From assembly GCF_000026545.1 (NCBI RefSeq), contig NC_011601.1: 64,000 nt of DNA; one strand, 5' to 3'. Positions within the stretch are counted from its first letter, which is position 1, and each line of letters begins with the position of its first letter. Made by a program: the position numbers. Below are positions 30,201-36,200 of the stretch, piece by piece. Origin of the DNA: Escherichia coli O127:H6 str. E2348/69. GTDB lineage: Bacteria; Pseudomonadota; Gammaproteobacteria; Enterobacterales; Enterobacteriaceae.

Positions 30201-33200
30201 AGGATGTGGTATTCCAGTACGAGCCGGTCGCGGCTGGGCTGGATTACGAAGCCACCTTGCAGGAAGAAAAACGAGTGCTGGTAGTGGATATCGGCGGTGG
30301 TACGACTGACTGTTCATTGCTGCTGATGGGGCCGCAATGGCGTTCGCGTCTCGATCGTGAAGCCAGCCTGCTGGGTCATAGTGGTTGCCGTATTGGTGGT
30401 AACGATCTGGATATCGCACTGGCGTTTAAGAACCTGATGCCGTTACTGGGCATGGGTGGCGAAACCGAAAAAGGCATCGCCCTGCCGATTCTGCCGTGGT
30501 GGAATGCGGTTGCGATCAACGACGTTCCTGCGCAGAGTGATTTCTACAGTAGTGCTAACGGTCGTCTGCTTAACGATCTGGTACGCGATGCCCGTGAACC
30601 GGAAAAAGTGGCCCTGTTACAGAAAGTCTGGCGTCAGCGTTTAAGCTATCGCCTGGTACGTAGCGCAGAAGAGAGCAAAATTGCGCTTTCAAGCGTAGCG
30701 GAAACCCGCGCCTCACTGCCGTTTATCAGCGATGAACTGGCTACGCTGATTAGCCAGCAAGGGCTGGAAAGCGCCCTCAGCCAGCCACTGGCGCGGATTC
30801 TGGAACAGGTGCAACTGGCGCTGGATAACGCCCAGGAAAAACCGGACGTTATCTATCTGACCGGCGGTAGCGCCCGTTCGCCGCTGATTAAAAAAGCGCT
30901 GGCAGAACAGTTGCCGGGCATTCCGATTGCAGGCGGCGATGACTTTAGCTCCGTCACCGCCGGGCTAGCACGCTGGGCGGAAGTGGTGTTTCGTTAATTG
31001 AAAAATGGCTCAGCAACGGCTTAAATCTGCCTGCGCCTGAGCCAGTTTTTCTGCCGCCTGACGTAGCGGTTCCATCAACGGCATGGTCCGTGCTGGCGCA
31101 TGAAGGCGGAATCGCTGCAACTCTGTCGCACCGACAGTTAGCGCCGATTCCAGCCGATGTCGTTTGGCGGCTATTTTTGCCATTACCGCTTGTCTGTCTG
31201 CAGGCGTTATCGCTTCATTCGGCCTGAACACAAAACGGCGTTCACAGCTCGCTTTCCAGTCGATAACCGCCTGGGTCAGATGATCACCAAAACCTTTTAC
31301 TTGCTTAACGCTCCGTCGGGTAACATCCGCTGCTGTTTCAATACCAAAGGACCGTAACGCCGCTTTACGCGCAGGGCCAACGCCGGGAATAGAGGCAACA
31401 TCAATAAAAAATCCCTCCAGAAACTTCTGCTTCTGCCGTTCCCTTGCGATGTCGTGAAGTGCTGCCAGAGCGCGTTTCTCCTCTTCCGGTAACCCGAGAA
31501 TTTCGTCCTTCATTTTTTCGAGCATCGCCCGTTTGGCGATAAAACCTTCCAGCCCGCCCAACTGTTGGATCTGGCTGACTAAATGGTCATAGTCCATTTT
31601 CGCGCGATTAAATGCCTCACGGCGTTGCTGGATTTCTGCTTTATAAGCTTTGCTTGTCAGACTGCCAATAATCCAGATAGCCGCCAGCACAGGAACCAAA
31701 ATAATATAACGCGGTTCTGCCTGAAGGCCGCAAAGCAACAGCGATAACGCTGACAGTGCGATCTCAATCAGAATGATGTATTCACGCCTTAAAAGGCCTA
31801 AAGGAAGCGGCCTGCCAGTCGGTTGAAAATGATCGGGTAATGGCAGTTGCAATGCTGGTGGTGCTACTGACGCCATCACCATCGCCCAGACTTTCGCCAG
31901 CACAAAATTCCCGCCGGTGGTAATGACCTCTTCGCCGAGATCAATAAAATAGATAACGCCTTGATTATCCAGCGCACACCACGGGCAGTCGGTCAAATGA
32001 CCGGGGTAAACATGCATTGCCGAAACGGTACATTTCTTTAACTGTTGGCGTAGTAAATCAAGTGCCGCTACCCACGCTTTTGCCGTCGGACGCGCGGTTG
32101 CCACGCCACTTTCCGTGAATGCCTGCTGAAACATGGCTTCAACATCGCCCGGTAACATCGACAGCGGAATCGATCGTGGCGGCGGTTTTAAACCACGCCG
32201 CTGATTATCTGACGCGTAGGCATAACGGAAATGAGCAATATCCGTCTCCAGCACATTCCCCGCATCAGAGATAAGCGGCACACCAGAATAAGGATGCCGC
32301 CCACCAAACAAGACGTGAAAAATCAGCAACGCAAGGCCAAAATTATCGTGATTCGCGGTGCGTTCAAAGCCGACAAATGATGGCAAGGTTTGTAGCTCTG
32401 GCGGCGTAAAATGCGACACGCCGACTTCGCATAAATGCAGCGTGCCATTGGCGTTGATCTGAAAGGAGTCGCTATCAATCAACACCACTTTGCTGTCGCG
32501 ACCTACCATAAAGCTGTTCTGGTTTACGTCACCCACGACGTGCCCGTGCTCATGAACCGTAGCAAAAGATGAAGCAATATTGCGCGCAACATAGAGTAGA
32601 AAATCCCACGCACAATGAGGGTAACTCTGGCGACGATGTGCCGGGCTATAGATCATATGAATCGGTTCTTTACCAGAAACTTTTGGCATCATAAAACCGA
32701 TAACTTTTCCGCCTCGTCCACCGTGAAGCGTTGCCTGCGGCCAGGCGACATAATTCAACAACTGCGCGTCAGCTGTCGCAGCCATAAAGGCAAGTTTGTC
32801 CTGTTTTAAGGCGGGTGGCGGCGTGTGATAAATCTTTGCGACACTATCGACAAACTCCTCGATATCATAAACCGCACCTTCGCCGCCTTTGCCCAGTTCA
32901 CGGCCTGGCGTAACGCACTCACCAGTAGCAGTATATAAAGTGGGTTTCATGGTAACCACATAGCCAGTGCCAACGTTTTATCATCATCCGTACGCTCGTT
33001 TACCGCCGGGCTGGACAAAAACTGCTTTAACAATTCAGGTAATAAATCGAGTTGTTCCTGCGTTGCTGACGCCAGTCCATTGAAAAACGGGGTAAAGAAA
33101 GGCACATGCGGAGAATTATCCAGCATATTTAACGCCAGTCGCTGAATACCATCCGTAAATGCTGCAACTTTATGCGCACGCTCAGTGCTGGTGAAAGTTT

Positions 33201-36200
33201 CCAGTCTGGAAACGGCATCTTCATCGGTAATGAAGTGCGTCATATTGGCATATTCACCCACCATCGGCGTGAGCGGCAGTTGCAAACCGTGACCCAAATC
33301 TACCACCACGCCGCCATCGCCAATCTGCATAATCAAGGTGCCATTAGCTGATGAAATCAATCCCAAAAACGTGCAGGCAAAATCGCGAACCGCTAATTCT
33401 TTGGCTTCCGCCTCGGCAAAAAGTCGCTGACGAATGGTCAGCACAATGTCCGTTGCGAGAACATCATTAAGCCCCAATTCCCCGCCCTGCACTTTTTGCG
33501 ACATATAAGCCATCGCTTCATTGACGGCGAGCATCGCACCTTCGCCTCCCTGCGAGGCGCTACCTGCGCCATCAGCGACAAATACCGACAATAATGGCTG
33601 CTGGTCATTTAACCAGGCAACCTGCATCTGGCAGGCATCCTGGCAAGGCAAGTCCGCGCTGATGTGCGACGTTCCAACGGCTGATGCATAGACCAGACGC
33701 CAGCTCACACTGACGTCCAGCCTTTTGGCGCTTCCAGCACAACTTCCGTTCCCGGCGTGGAGCGGGAAACCGAACGCAGCGAACTGGATAACCAGCTAAA
33801 CAGTTCACGGAATTGTAACCCCTGCAGAGACAAAGGCTGACGGACGCTGATTTGAGCCAGCGTCTTCATATCCGCCCCCTGAACACCGATGGAAAAGAAG
33901 GCAAACTTCTTATCTTCTTCCCCCTGAAACACTTTGTTGGCGGCAGCCTGCCACTCATCGGTTGGTGCACCATCGGTGATCAGGAAAATCCACGGACGAT
34001 AATAGGAAATACCATTGGCACGATATTCACGTTTCCGCTCCTCAACCATATCCAGGGCTTTGGTAATGGCAGCGCCCATTGGTGTATCGCCCTGGGCAAA
34101 CAGGATGGGCGGGAAAAAATTAGCGGCGCTGGTAAAGGGTTGTTCCACATGCACCGGGCCGAACGTCACAATGCCGAGTTCCACTCTTTTTAAGGCCAGC
34201 GAATCGGCAAGCAGCTCATCGCGAAAGGTAATCAATCCGGCGTTAAGTTCATTAATGGGTCTGCCGCTCATCGAGCCAGAAACATCCAGCAGCAAAATGC
34301 AGGGGCAACGAGGTTCCGGGTTACTGGCAAAATCGCTGGTGGCAAACGTGATTTGTTCGCTCATAAGAAATCCTTTCTTAGAGTATTATTGAGATCCGGT
34401 ATCATACCGACTGCAATAATGAAATAAGAGCAAACGAAGAAACTTTCAGAATTAGGCCCGGCGGCGCAGAAAATTTTGCTATTCGCCTCGCAAGAACGAA
34501 GAGCCGTCGATTGACACTAAGGGCGGAGTGACATAATTTCAGGAGTGAGGGTAGAGCGGGGTTTCCCCCGCCCTGGTAGTCTTAGTAAGCTGGCCAGCTA
34601 ATGACTAAGAGCACCACAATGATGAGTAGCTTCATCATGACCCTTTCCTTATTTAAGGCCCCTTCCTCGGGCTGTCTCTTATACACAAATCCCCACCCGG
34701 GGATTTGTGATGTCTGTCAGTCTGCTTTAGGGGGACTCTTTCCATCCGGTAGTTTCCTTCCTCCCCGGCAGCGATTTTTTGAACTTTTTCCTCACCCGTT
34801 GATCTTCTCTTATATTTCATTTTCTTCGGGTCTGTTATGGTACTTTCTGATTGTTATTCATGGGCTAACGAGCAGTTTGGACATGCCCGTCTCGGTGATC
34901 CGCGTCGTACACGACGCCTTGTGTCACTGGCCTCTTCTCTCGCTCAGCATGCAGGTCTTTCTATTGTGAAATCATCCCAGTCCACTGCTCAGGTTGAAGG
35001 TGCGTACCGCCTGATACGTAACCCGTCTGTGTCCCCGCAAGCCATTGCCGAAGCCGGATTTACCGCCACTGTAAGGGCATGTGAGGCTCATCCGCTGCTC
35101 CTCGCGCTGGAAGACACCACCACCATTAACTTCAGTCACAGTACGGCATCTGATGACCTGGGGAATACCACCACTAACCCGAAGACGCGCGGGCTGCTGG
35201 CTCACTCTGTCCTGATGTACGCCCCCGACAGCGCCCTGCCAGTCGGTCTTATCGAACAGCAGCGCTGGAGTCGTGCCACGGACACCTACGGTGTTAAGCA
35301 CCAGCGAAAAGAACGTCCCTATGAAGAAAAAGAAAGTTACCGCTGGCAGCAGGCTTCGGAGCGCATGGCCGAACGGCTGGGGGAGATACAGAAACGGGTA
35401 ATCACTGTCTGTGACCGGGAAGCGGATATCTGGCATTACCTGCATTATAAAGTCAGCCACGGGCAGCGCTTCGTGGTGCGTGCAGCACAGAATCGCCGGC
35501 TGGAAGAAGCACCCGGCAAGCTCTTCGAACTGCCGGAAGTCCTGGCAACCGCGGGAAGCCACACGCTGAATGTGATGCAAAAAGGCGGGCGGGCAGCCCG
35601 CCAGGCCCGGATGTTCATCAGTTACAGCGAAGTCAGCATAAAAAATCCCGACAACAGCGGCCAGGCGCTCCCGCTCACGTATGTCTGTTGCCGGGAGCAG
35701 GCAGAGGACGGCGCCTGCTGGCATCTGCTGACGTCAGAAAAAGTGGCGAGTGCCGCCGATGCGCGACGTATCGTCAGCCATTACGAGCGACGCTGGCTGA
35801 TAGAGGAATACCACAAGGCGTGGAAAAGTGGTGGTACATGTGTGGAATCGCTGCGAATGCAGACCCGGGATAACCTCGAGCGCATGGTGGTTATCAAGGC
35901 GTTTATCGCGGTGCGGGTGCTGGGCCTGCGGCAGGGCGGTATCAGTGAAGAAACACAAAATGACAGCTGTGAGAAAATACTGACGCCGACAGAGTGGAAA
36001 CTGCTGTGGGTTAAGCTGGAAGGAAAACCGCTTCCGTCACAGATGCCGACACTGAAATGGGCCTGTCTGAAACTGGCGAAACTGGGGCGATGGCATGACA
36101 GCAAACGCACCGGTCGCCCCGGTTGGGTAGTCATGTGGGATGGCTGGTTCAGACTTCAGGATATGGTTGAGGGTTACCTGGTGATGAAGTCTCTTGATCA

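What the first reader, a model, noticed from the sequence alone, without database searches (positions are those of the whole stretch)
31010..34364. Three-gene module yegL-pphC-yegI: vWA protein, PP2C phosphatase and kinase-like membrane protein with an HhH motif
The three ORFs overlap at their junctions (4 nt and 13 nt), consistent with translational coupling in one operon. YegL carries a MIDAS motif (DVSGSMSG). PphC has a PP2C signature. YegI combines a eukaryotic-like kinase core, a TM region and a helix-hairpin-helix motif. The kinase and phosphatase have had some biochemical study, but the physiological role of the triad is open; the domain combination resembles signalling or conflict-type modules, and the locus is flanked here by mobile DNA.
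Basis: partly seen in the sequence, partly recalled or inferred. Interest (0 to 1): 0.55.

Follow-up and report, generated by a model that had tools for sequence, protein, structure and literature searches.

The report
E. coli vWA–phosphatase–kinase (TerY-P-like) operon
The three overlapping genes yegL-pphC-yegI are real, already named and partly characterised E. coli genes; they form a membrane-anchored kinase/phosphatase/vWA switch that travels between bacteria and archaea as a fixed three-gene cassette and often sits among anti-phage genes, so it is probably an unrecognised relative of the TerY-P defence system.

Summary
The window is E. coli E2348/69, with yegL (33705-34364), pphC (32947-33708) and yegI (31010-32950) on the minus strand.

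vWA/MIDAS and PP2C are confirmed by Pfam. The kinase is missed by Pfam but supported by fold (PknB-like), invariant catalytic residues and published biochemistry. YegI also has a Zn knuckle, a two-helix membrane hairpin and an (HhH)2 DNA-binding domain.

The genes and enzymology are already published (Rajagopalan and Dworkin). The architecture is that of the TerY-P triad.

New here:
- The triad is a rigid cassette, colinear in 71 of 72 loci from bacteria and archaea.
- It is found on plasmids and is essentially absent from phages.
- It lies within 10 kb of known defence genes in 8 of 14 loci.
- It is a separate family that PADLOC's TerY-P models do not detect.
- YegL is by far the most conserved component.

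The flanking mobile DNA is two independent, strain-specific ISEc13 insertions unrelated to the triad.

Most likely function: a DNA-sensing phospho-switch used in defence against phage or plasmid DNA. That role is inferred, not shown. Interest is moderate.

The parts
33705..34364 (-). yegL: 219-aa TerY-like vWA protein. It has a complete MIDAS (D27, S29, S31, T94, D131) and a conserved Ser-rich C-terminal motif [14 protein letters not shown] (aa 189-202; nt 33759-33800).
   Evidence: Pfam VWA 2.1e-9. MIDAS and tail residues are >=97% conserved in 77 homologues, with median 63% identity. Coordinates.
32947..33708 (-). pphC (yegK): 253-aa PP2C-type Ser/Thr phosphatase with a GTG start.
   Evidence: Pfam PP2C_2 1.4e-52. 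D46, D131, D186 and D242/D243 are conserved. Published Mn-dependent activity and dephosphorylation of YegI (10.1101/303594).
31010..32950 (-). yegI: 646-aa membrane-anchored Ser/Thr kinase, using the ATG start at 32950.
   Evidence: RefSeq annotation, homologue alignment, AF2 model at pLDDT 91.9, published kinase activity and two-pass topology (10.1101/819920).
32051..32950 (-). YegI kinase domain (aa 1-300). Motifs: P-loop GKGGEG 20-25, VAK39, catalytic loop VGDVNQNS 139-146, DSDS 159-162, TPPE 182-185.
   Evidence: Foldseek top hit is PknB (E 2e-7, TM 0.70 relative to the target). Invariant residues; coordinates.
31976..32032 (-). Zn-knuckle-like motif C307-x5-H313-x8-C322-x2-C325, immediately after the kinase domain.
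   Evidence: C307, H313, C322 and C325 are invariant in 61 sequences at 33-63% identity. Short strands 304-306 and 314-316 in the model.
31658..31780 (-). Transmembrane hairpin: TM1 aa 391-409 and TM2 aa 415-431, joined by a 5-residue loop.
   Evidence: Kyte-Doolittle score >1.6, helices in the model, published PhoA-LacZ topology with both termini cytoplasmic.
31238..31408 (-). (HhH)2 DNA-binding domain (aa 515-571), with hairpins IPGVGP and VKGFGD.
31016..31204 (-). Long C-terminal helix (aa 583-645), presumably a dimerising coiled coil. A second long helix, aa 433-511, links TM2 to the HhH domain.
   Evidence: DSSP on the models. The dimerising role is inferred, and is consistent with the published second-order autophosphorylation kinetics.
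33705..33708 (-). GTGA overlap: yegL stop and pphC start.
   Evidence: Sequence. The same 4-nt overlap is present in Klebsiella, Piscinibacter and Chromobacterium loci.
32947..32950 (-). ATGA overlap: pphC stop and yegI start.
   Evidence: Sequence. The junction is intact in 3471 of 5426 E. coli genomes. Published.

Best explanation
yegL-pphC-yegI is one translationally coupled operon encoding a TerY-P-type phospho-switch.

Shown in the literature:
- YegI is an inner-membrane, Mn2+-preferring Ser kinase with both ends in the cytoplasm.
- It autophosphorylates with second-order kinetics.
- PphC, a PP2C phosphatase, removes that phosphate.

Shown here:
- YegI carries, after the kinase, an invariant Zn knuckle, a membrane hairpin, a coiled coil and an (HhH)2 DNA-binding domain.
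- The three genes form a rigid, self-contained cassette spread by horizontal transfer across bacterial phyla and methanogenic archaea, and onto conjugative plasmids and megaplasmids.
- The cassette frequently sits among restriction, Gabija, CBASS, Abi and similar genes.
- YegL is the most constrained component.

Inferred:
- The membrane-tethered kinase is held off by PphC.
- It is switched on when its HhH domain meets DNA at the inner face of the membrane, for example an entering phage or plasmid genome.
- It then phosphorylates the conserved Ser-rich tail of YegL and/or other targets.
- The MIDAS-containing YegL acts as the output hub that blocks the invader.

In E. coli the cassette is fixed in the chromosome, poorly expressed in the laboratory, and split by yegJ in about a third of strains, including K-12.
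For: Identity and operon structure.

Domains.

Enzymology and topology: 10.1101/303594 and 10.1101/819920.

Family size and synteny:
- 3200 clusters at E<1e-30.
- At least 533 of the matched stretches in the scan of 100,044 species-representative genomes, with 71 of 72 loci colinear.
- No fourth conserved gene.

Mobility:
- 82 plasmid records, 46 of them conjugative.
- The only phage hit is a partial 27%-identity match in one unannotated record.
- Tn7-like and Tn3 neighbours.

Defence-island context:
- K. spallanzanii: GmrSD, type I RM, SymE.
- Piscinibacter: BrxR, JetB, SLFN-like helicase.
- Chromobacterium: AbiH, KAP NTPase.
- Metagenome contig: type I RM plus Mrr.
- Paenibacillus: Mrr, PD-T4-6-like kinase.
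- P. alcaligenes: Gabija directly adjacent, plus CBASS and IetS.
- Bacillus: Nhi, PD-Lambda-2, HNH.
- Keguizhuia: type I RM adjacent.

Precedent:
- TerY-P triads defend against T7-like and Autographiviridae phages without killing the cell (PMC7699616; PMC10889362).
- The validated STK_OB kinase fetched here also combines a nucleic-acid-binding domain with a C-terminal hydrophobic anchor.

Selection and conservation:
- dN/dS 0.06-0.16.
- YegL is 58-87% identical across domains of life, against about 40% for PphC and 37% for YegI.
- YegL overproduction raises DNA damage in E. coli (10.1101/354589).
Against: No phage, plasmid or any other phenotype is known for these genes.

Two groups could not detect expression in the laboratory.

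E. coli B strains carry the intact operon. From my own knowledge, they are nevertheless fully permissive hosts for T-phages. Any defence must therefore be silent, conditional or narrow.

PADLOC TerY-P models do not recognise the proteins: TerY E 0.0087, PP2C and STK_OB no hit. A genuine TerY-P triad scored 1e-87 to 1e-230.

Six of 14 contexts show no clear defence genes, and I had no matched background control.

Near-universal presence in E. coli, in at least 5404 of 5426 genomes by the junction probe, is unusual for a defence system and would also fit a housekeeping role.

Phosphorylation of YegL, DNA binding by the HhH domain and the trigger are all untested.
Confidence: 0.5

Rival explanations
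1. A housekeeping eSTK/eSTP signalling pair, like PrkC/PrpC or PknB/PstP. It would regulate E. coli physiology, for example stationary phase, DNA damage or envelope state, through phosphorylation of cellular proteins, with YegL as an adaptor.
For: The module is core in E. coli: the junction probe matches 5404 of 5426 genomes, and a deletion scar was seen in strain ET5. Purifying selection is strong. Weak stationary-phase expression is reported, and yegI mutations recur in the long-term evolution experiment. YegL overproduction is DNA-damage-up.
Against: Outside Escherichia the distribution is patchy, and full-length identity of 34-62% is shared with Burkholderiales, Firmicutes, Actinobacteria and Methanoregula, which implies horizontal transfer rather than vertical housekeeping descent. 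Genomic neighbours differ in every genus, and many are defence islands or plasmids. No conserved cellular partner gene was found. The yegD adjacency is confined to Escherichia.
Confidence: 0.2
2. A metal or tellurite stress module, as in the original Ter context of TerY. The MIDAS of YegL would sense a divalent metal and the kinase/phosphatase pair would relay the signal.
For: The vWA is TerY-like with an intact MIDAS. Both enzymes prefer Mn2+. TerY-P was first proposed as a metal-sensing switch (quoted in PMC11090510).
Against: No TerB, TerC, TerD or TerZ families appear among the Pfam-annotated neighbours in eight loci, nor as a recurrent neighbour family. A DNA-binding (HhH)2 domain and a Zn knuckle on the kinase point to nucleic acid rather than metal as the ligand.
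Confidence: 0.07
3. A plasmid-competition or DNA-entry module. On large conjugative plasmids it would monitor or exclude incoming DNA, or support establishment of the plasmid, rather than fight phages.
For: 82 plasmid records carry it, 46 of them conjugative, including Pseudomonas megaplasmids (pQBR103 family), Agrobacterium and Rhizobium. In Pseudomonas megaplasmids it sits next to umuDC-like genes, HU, TraR/DksA and a coupling-protein gene. The kinase is membrane-anchored and DNA-binding.
Against: Most family members are chromosomal. This is a sub-case of the defence reading rather than a true alternative. No experiment bears on it.
Confidence: 0.13
4. An inert relic in E. coli: a horizontally acquired cassette that is silenced and on its way to decay.
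For: Expression is undetectable in laboratory conditions. yegJ splits the operon and rewrites the pphC 3' end and the yegI 5' end in 1934 of 5426 genomes. No sigma-70-like promoter was found upstream of yegL. A deletion was seen in strain ET5.
Against: dN/dS is 0.06-0.16 for all three genes, including the comparison with K-12. Reading frames are intact and catalytic residues are retained, and both enzymes are active in vitro. The genes are present in almost every E. coli genome.
Confidence: 0.1

Closest known systems
TerY-P triad (TerY-phosphorylation triad; Anantharaman, Iyer and Aravind 2012, as summarised in PMC11090510 and PMC4978471)
   Same: The three-component syntax and gene order are the same: a TerY-like vWA/MIDAS protein, a PP2C phosphatase and a Ser/Thr kinase in one operon. 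The kinase is followed by a small Zn-binding module. The triad associates with restriction and other DNA-processing or defence genes. YegL and a genuine TerY share a C-terminal LFSxxSSxL motif.
   Different: Here the triad stands alone, with no ter genes and no CoCoNuT/McrBC partners. The kinase has an extra membrane hairpin, coiled coils and an (HhH)2 domain. I could not read the 2012 paper, so I cannot say whether it already lists YegL/YegK/YegI.
TerY-P anti-phage system of Gao et al. 2020 and Costa et al. 2024 (PADLOC models TerY, PP2C, STK_OB)
   Same: Same architecture and order. The kinase combines a nucleic-acid-binding domain with a membrane anchor. The unusual catalytic-loop and metal-loop motifs are similar (GDLQPGN / LIDYDG versus GDVNQNS / LIDSDS). 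It is found in defence islands.
   Different: Sequence similarity is marginal: YegL to TerY is 27% over 118 aa, the kinases 27% over 82 aa, and the phosphatases show none. PADLOC models that score 1e-87 to 1e-230 on a genuine triad miss the E. coli proteins. TerY is 277 aa against 219 aa for YegL. The kinase has an OB fold plus a C-terminal anchor instead of Zn knuckle, TM hairpin and (HhH)2. Anti-phage activity is shown for that family and not for this one.
Bacterial Hanks-type kinase / PP2C pairs (PknB-PstP, PrkC-PrpC, PpkA-PppA of the P. aeruginosa type VI secretion system)
   Same: The kinase fold is bilobal and closest to PknB. The cognate PP2C is in the same operon and dephosphorylates the kinase. 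PpkA also carries a vWA domain (from my own knowledge).
   Different: There is no extracytoplasmic sensor domain. The catalytic motifs are non-canonical (VGD for HRD, DSD for DFG). The vWA is a separate protein. The pattern of horizontal mobility is different.

Membership tests
TerY-P triad (architectural definition) | TerY-like vWA protein with a MIDAS | tested here: met
   Pfam VWA 2.1e-9. D27, S29, S31, T94 and D131 are >=97% conserved. BLASTP to a genuine TerY gives 27% over 118 aa, E 2e-4, with a shared C-terminal motif.
TerY-P triad (architectural definition) | PP2C phosphatase encoded next to the vWA gene | tested here: met
   PP2C_2 1.4e-52. 4-nt overlap with yegL. Published activity.
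TerY-P triad (architectural definition) | Ser/Thr kinase as the third gene, in conserved order | tested here: met
   Kinase fold and published activity. The vWA, PP2C, kinase order is colinear in 71 of 72 loci.
TerY-P triad (architectural definition) | Kinase fused C-terminally to a Zn ribbon or another nucleic-acid-binding module | tested here: met
   Invariant C307, H313, C322 and C325. (HhH)2 fold. Metal and DNA binding themselves are not testable here.
Validated TerY-P defence system (PADLOC TerY + PP2C + STK_OB) | Significant match of each protein to the PADLOC models | tested here: not met
   YegL to TerY scores E 0.0087. PphC and YegI give no hit to PP2C or STK_OB, even at E<=10. The positive-control triad L094 scores 1.7e-159, 2.1e-87 and 7.4e-230.
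Validated TerY-P defence system (PADLOC TerY + PP2C + STK_OB) | OB fold at the kinase C-terminus | tested here: not met
   The YegI C-terminal half is a TM hairpin, coiled coil and (HhH)2 domain.
Validated TerY-P defence system (PADLOC TerY + PP2C + STK_OB) | Protection against phage infection | not testable with these tools
Only the neighbourhood evidence is available.
Hanks-type (eukaryotic-like) Ser/Thr kinase | Pfam Pkinase match | tested here: inconclusive
   YegI itself gives no hit. Homologues hit PF00069 at 1.9e-9 and 1.9e-8 and in precomputed annotation.
Hanks-type (eukaryotic-like) Ser/Thr kinase | Bilobal kinase fold with catalytic Lys and Asp residues | tested here: met
   Foldseek hit to PknB at E 2e-7. 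K39, D141 and D159 are invariant. K39D and D141N are inactive.
Hanks-type (eukaryotic-like) Ser/Thr kinase | Canonical HRD and DFG motifs | tested here: not met
   The sequence has VGDVNQNS and DSD instead. Changing DSD to DFG inactivates the enzyme.
Composite transposon formed by the two flanking ISEc13 copies | One target-site duplication shared by the outer ends of the pair | tested here: not met
   Copy A is flanked by GTTGGGGG and copy B by TCCTCGGG, so each has its own duplication. The arrangement is found in only 4 of 5426 genomes.

The most novel reading that the evidence does not exclude
yegL-pphC-yegI and its thousands of relatives are an unannotated family of anti-phage or anti-plasmid systems, a second type of TerY-P. 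In this family a membrane-tethered kinase detects incoming DNA with its (HhH)2 domain. It signals through phosphorylation of the ultra-conserved vWA protein YegL without killing the cell. The system would be present in almost every E. coli, but silent in the laboratory and split by yegJ in K-12.
Probability: 0.35. Interest if true: 0.7.

Novelty: new variant of a known kind. Interest (0 to 1): 0.45.

Why it matters
E. coli K-12 and B are the standard hosts for phage and defence-system work. A conserved chromosomal TerY-P-like module that current defence finders miss would be an unaccounted variable in that work, and a ready model for how TerY-P systems sense infection. [quoted passage not shown] The very high conservation of YegL (58-87% identity from E. 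coli to methanogens) marks it as the component to study first.

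Tried and rejected
- Direct recognition by PADLOC failed.
- Pfam did not see the YegI kinase. A sequence search of the PDB gave only NleH1 at E 0.03. A profile of the C-terminal domain gave nothing significant against the PDB.
- The founding TerY-P paper (Anantharaman 2012) is not held.
- I tested whether the 'TerY-P variant' validated in P. aeruginosa (PMC10889362) is the YegI family.
  - Its sequencing primers were not in any fetched locus.
  - Three collection scans found nothing.
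  - The fourth scan retrieved contig L094.
  - L094 is the Gao-type STK_OB family, not the YegI family, so that experimental evidence cannot be transferred directly.
- A search for P. aeruginosa members via the P. alcaligenes homologue gave no named P. aeruginosa hit.
- A conserved fourth gene: none. There is only a lineage-specific TetR-like gene in Competibacteraceae, and a small 69-aa gene, with or without an SNase gene, in a few Burkholderiales loci.
- Linkage to the Hsp70-like yegD exists only in Escherichia.
- Composite transposon: rejected by the different target duplications.
- 'Empty site' in strain ET5: it is a deletion scar that retains about 70 nt of the yegI 3' end and 43 nt of the yegL 5' end, not an ancestral empty site.
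- Complex modelling of YegI with YegL was not attempted. The structure tool returns no inter-chain error estimates, so an interface could not be judged.

Full report
**What is there**

The window is the chromosome of enteropathogenic E. coli E2348/69, at 100% identity. On the minus strand lie three genes:

| Gene | Coordinates | Length |
|---|---|---|
| yegL | 33705-34364 | 219 aa |
| pphC | 32947-33708 | 253 aa |
| yegI | 31010-32950 | 646 aa |

yegD and alkA lie on one side. An Ibs/Sib toxin-antitoxin locus and mdtA lie on the other.

- yegL and pphC share GTGA.
- pphC and yegI share ATGA if yegI starts at the ATG used by RefSeq, by the published protein and by all homologues.
- The same 4-nt overlaps recur in Klebsiella, and the vWA/PP2C overlap recurs in Piscinibacter and Chromobacterium. 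Translational coupling is therefore a conserved property of the cassette.

**Domains**

- YegL matches Pfam VWA (2.1e-9). Its MIDAS residues D27, S29, S31, T94 and D131 are at least 97% conserved in 77 homologues.
- PphC matches PP2C_2 at 1.4e-52.
- For YegI, Pfam reports only an HhH motif and no kinase. NCBIfam and PADLOC give only weak kinase-like hits.

The kinase assignment nevertheless stands, for four reasons:
- An AlphaFold model built on 61 homologues has pLDDT 91.9, and its best PDB match is M. tuberculosis PknB.
- The P-loop glycines, K39, D141, D159 and E185 are invariant across sequences only 33-63% identical.
- More distant homologues do hit Pfam Pkinase.
- Rajagopalan and Dworkin showed Mn-preferring Ser autophosphorylation that is abolished by K39D and D141N.

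Beyond the kinase domain I find:
- An invariant C307/H313/C322/C325 zinc knuckle.
- Two hydrophobic helices at 391-409 and 415-431 joined by five residues. This matches the published two-pass topology with both termini cytoplasmic.
- A long helix.
- A final 60-residue helix.

**What is already known**

- The triad map, PphC activity, dephosphorylation of YegI by PphC, YegI activity and topology, and the yegJ insertion in K-12 are all published (10.1101/303594, 10.1101/819920).
- Substrates, inducing signal and physiological role are explicitly open. A 2026 paper still describes the locus as unexpressed in standard growth (PMC13232886).
- YegL overproduction scored as strongly DNA-damage-promoting in a genome-wide screen (10.1101/354589).
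- The vWA, PP2C, kinase syntax is that of the TerY-P triad. It was proposed in 2012 as a phosphorylation switch linked to DNA-processing and restriction systems (quoted in PMC11090510 and PMC4978471).
- A stand-alone version of the triad protects against T7-like phages (Gao 2020 via PMC7699616). It also protects against Autographiviridae in P. aeruginosa, with cell survival (PMC10889362).

**Distribution and synteny**

- YegI-like proteins form a very large family: 3200 clusters at E<1e-30 in a 50%-identity library, most of them about 646 aa long.
- A scan of one genome per species found at least 533 encoding stretches. They come from Beta-, Gamma-, Alpha- and Deltaproteobacteria, Actinobacteria, Firmicutes, Acidobacteria, Planctomycetes, Cyanobacteria and Methanoregula/Methanomicrobiales archaea.
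- Of the 72 retrieved loci with enough upstream sequence, 71 have the vWA and PP2C genes immediately upstream, on the same strand and in the same order.
- No fourth gene is conserved.
- The family is present on 82 plasmid records, 46 of them conjugative, including the pQBR103-type Pseudomonas megaplasmids.
- It is essentially absent from phage genomes; the only hit was a partial 27%-identity match in one unannotated record.

Within E. coli:
- A probe spanning the pphC-yegI junction matches 5404 of 5426 complete genomes.
- The junction is intact in 3471 genomes and interrupted by the yegJ segment in 1934.
- The yegJ insertion also rewrote the last residues of PphC and the first 16 or so of YegI.
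- One strain (ET5) has a 3.2-kb deletion that leaves scars of both end genes.
- dN/dS is 0.06-0.16 for all three genes.

**Genomic context**

I examined 14 distinct non-Escherichia chromosomal loci. Eight have recognised defence genes within 10 kb:

| Locus | Defence genes nearby |
|---|---|
| K. spallanzanii | GmrSD, type I RM, SymE, BrnA |
| Piscinibacter | BrxR, JetB, SLFN-like helicase, ScoMcrA-like, SNase |
| Chromobacterium | AbiH, KAP NTPase, beside a Tn7-like element |
| Metagenome contig (L008) | type I RM, Mrr |
| Paenibacillus | Mrr-type enzyme, PD-T4-6-like kinase |
| P. alcaligenes | Gabija abutting the triad, CBASS, IetS |
| Bacillus | Nhi, PD-Lambda-2, HNH |
| Keguizhuia | type I RM abutting the triad |

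- A Methanoregula locus has only a Csa3 gene.
- Five loci look like housekeeping or unannotated contexts.
- I had no matched background, so this is descriptive. It is, however, the pattern used to nominate defence systems.

**Relation to the validated TerY-P**

- PADLOC does not recognise the E. coli proteins.
- To obtain a positive control, I used a sequencing primer published for the P. aeruginosa system to fetch a metagenomic contig.
- That contig's triad has a 277-aa vWA, a 240-aa PP2C and a 556-aa kinase. It scores 1.7e-159, 2.1e-87 and 7.4e-230 on PADLOC's TerY, PP2C and STK_OB models.
- Against it, YegL aligns at 27% over 118 residues, YegI at 27% over 82 residues around the catalytic loop, and PphC not at all.
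- The E. coli triad therefore has the TerY-P architecture but belongs to a separate, very distant family.

Two resemblances are worth noting:
- Both vWA proteins end in an LFSxxSSxL-type Ser-rich motif.
- Both kinases join a nucleic-acid-binding module (OB versus (HhH)2) to a membrane anchor (the anchor is read from the sequence).

**Which part is most constrained**

Across 77-79 loci the median identity to the E. coli protein is 63% for YegL (minimum 58%), 40% for PphC and 37% for YegI. The small vWA protein is thus far more conserved than the two enzymes, even between E. coli and archaea. This suggests it contacts something universal, or is itself the output element. Its conserved serines (S193, S195, S200, S202) are natural candidate phospho-acceptors. 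This last point is inference.

**Most likely mechanism**

| Status | Steps |
|---|---|
| Shown | Operon structure; active kinase and phosphatase; PphC resets YegI; membrane anchoring; conservation of catalytic, MIDAS, Zn and HhH residues; cassette mobility; frequent defence-island location |
| Inferred | DNA near the inner membrane is the signal, read by the HhH domain; dimerisation through the coiled coils drives trans-autophosphorylation; YegL is the substrate or hub; the biological role is defence against phage or plasmid DNA |

Points against the defence reading:
- There is no phenotype.
- Expression is undetectable in the laboratory.
- B strains with the intact operon are permissive hosts (from my own knowledge).
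- Near-universal presence in E. coli is unusual for a defence system.

Rival explanations are housekeeping signalling, metal sensing, a plasmid-specific function, and a silenced relic. They are laid out separately with the tests that would exclude them.

**The flanking mobile DNA**

- Two 100%-identical, same-orientation copies of ISEc13 lie at 24096-25645 and 34672-36221. The element is 1550 bp, with IS50-like ends.
- The first copy splits dgcE. The second lies in the sib/ibs locus, about 300 bp upstream of yegL.
- Each copy has its own 8-bp direct repeat (GTTGGGGG and TCCTCGGG), so they are independent insertions and not a composite transposon.
- The arrangement occurs in 4 of 5426 genomes.
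- It is irrelevant to the origin of the triad. It does create a 9-kb segment that could be deleted by recombination, or mobilised.

**Verdict**

The observation and the interpretation are sound. The genes and their enzymology are already known, and the architecture belongs to a known kind (TerY-P). What my analysis adds:
- This is a distinct, very widespread variant that is missed by PADLOC (tested here).
- The synteny is rigid.
- The cassette has defence-island neighbours.
- The vWA component is unusually conserved.

Interest is moderate. The physiological question is open and now directly testable.

Noticed in passing
window 24096-25645: A second ISEc13 copy, 100% identical to the one at 34672-36221 and in the same orientation. 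It splits the diguanylate cyclase gene dgcE (yegE) into a MASE1 fragment and a 968-aa remainder (25647-28553). It is flanked by its own 8-bp repeat, GTTGGGGG.
   Followed up: yes
window 34672-36221: An ISEc13 copy (IS4 family; IS50-like ends CTGTCTCTTATACACAAAT and AGATCTGATCAAGAGACAG). It is inserted in a hairpin of the sib/ibs locus, 33 bp from the ibs start, and is flanked by TCCTCGGG. The query spanning this arrangement is covered >=80% in only 4 of 5426 complete E. coli genomes, whereas about 30 places in E2348/69 match part of that query, presumably mostly ISEc13 copies.
   Followed up: yes
window 34511-34653: Sib antitoxin RNA (Rfam RF00113, 138 bits) on the plus strand, overlapping an Ibs toxin ORF (34582-34638, minus strand). 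Only one Ibs/Sib unit is present here, against two in K-12. The IS sits where the second unit would begin.
   Followed up: partly
L002 (K-12 BW25113) 4058-4782, versus window 32940-32960: The yegJ insertion is present in 1934 of 5426 genomes. It separates pphC from yegI, and it also replaces the last residues of PphC (ALWAE versus AMWLP) and the first 16 or so residues of YegI. A 2026 paper reports that YegJ binds RNase E.
   Followed up: partly
L096 (E. coli ET5) 8866-9153: A rare natural deletion of the triad. About 70 nt of the yegI 3' end and 43 nt of the yegL 5' end remain between yegD and ibs.
   Followed up: yes
L034 (listed as E. coli strain E69) 2980-3741: pphC has dS 0.82 against E2348/69, while the flanking yegL and yegI have dS of 0.25 and 0.31. 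This suggests a recombinant, mosaic operon.
   Followed up: no
L005 7719-8474; L009 7700-8501; L008 8075-8284; L018 4165-4410: In several Burkholderiales-type loci a conserved gene of about 69 aa sits directly upstream of the vWA gene, on the same strand. In two of them it is followed by a staphylococcal-nuclease-like gene. This is a possible accessory effector of the cassette.
   Followed up: partly
L011 and L012 (Pseudomonas megaplasmids pQBR103 and pVIM-24-ZDHY316): The triad sits beside umuDC-like genes. It is close to HU, TraR/DksA, a second large HhH-domain protein and a coupling-protein gene, that is, near the transfer region of the plasmid.
   Followed up: no
L054, L057, L062-L065, L078, L080, L081, L084, L093: Complete triads in Methanoregula and Methanomicrobiales archaeal genomes. 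YegL is about 60% identical to the E. coli protein, which indicates inter-domain horizontal transfer.
   Followed up: partly
L094 2128-3798: The PADLOC-type TerY-P kinase (STK_OB) ends in a hydrophobic stretch (IPWWVWIVGLWVLIAIF). The validated TerY-P kinase is therefore probably membrane-anchored too, like YegI.
   Followed up: no
window 30997-31010: yegD and yegI converge, with only 12 bp between their stop codons and no terminator-like hairpin detected.
   Followed up: partly
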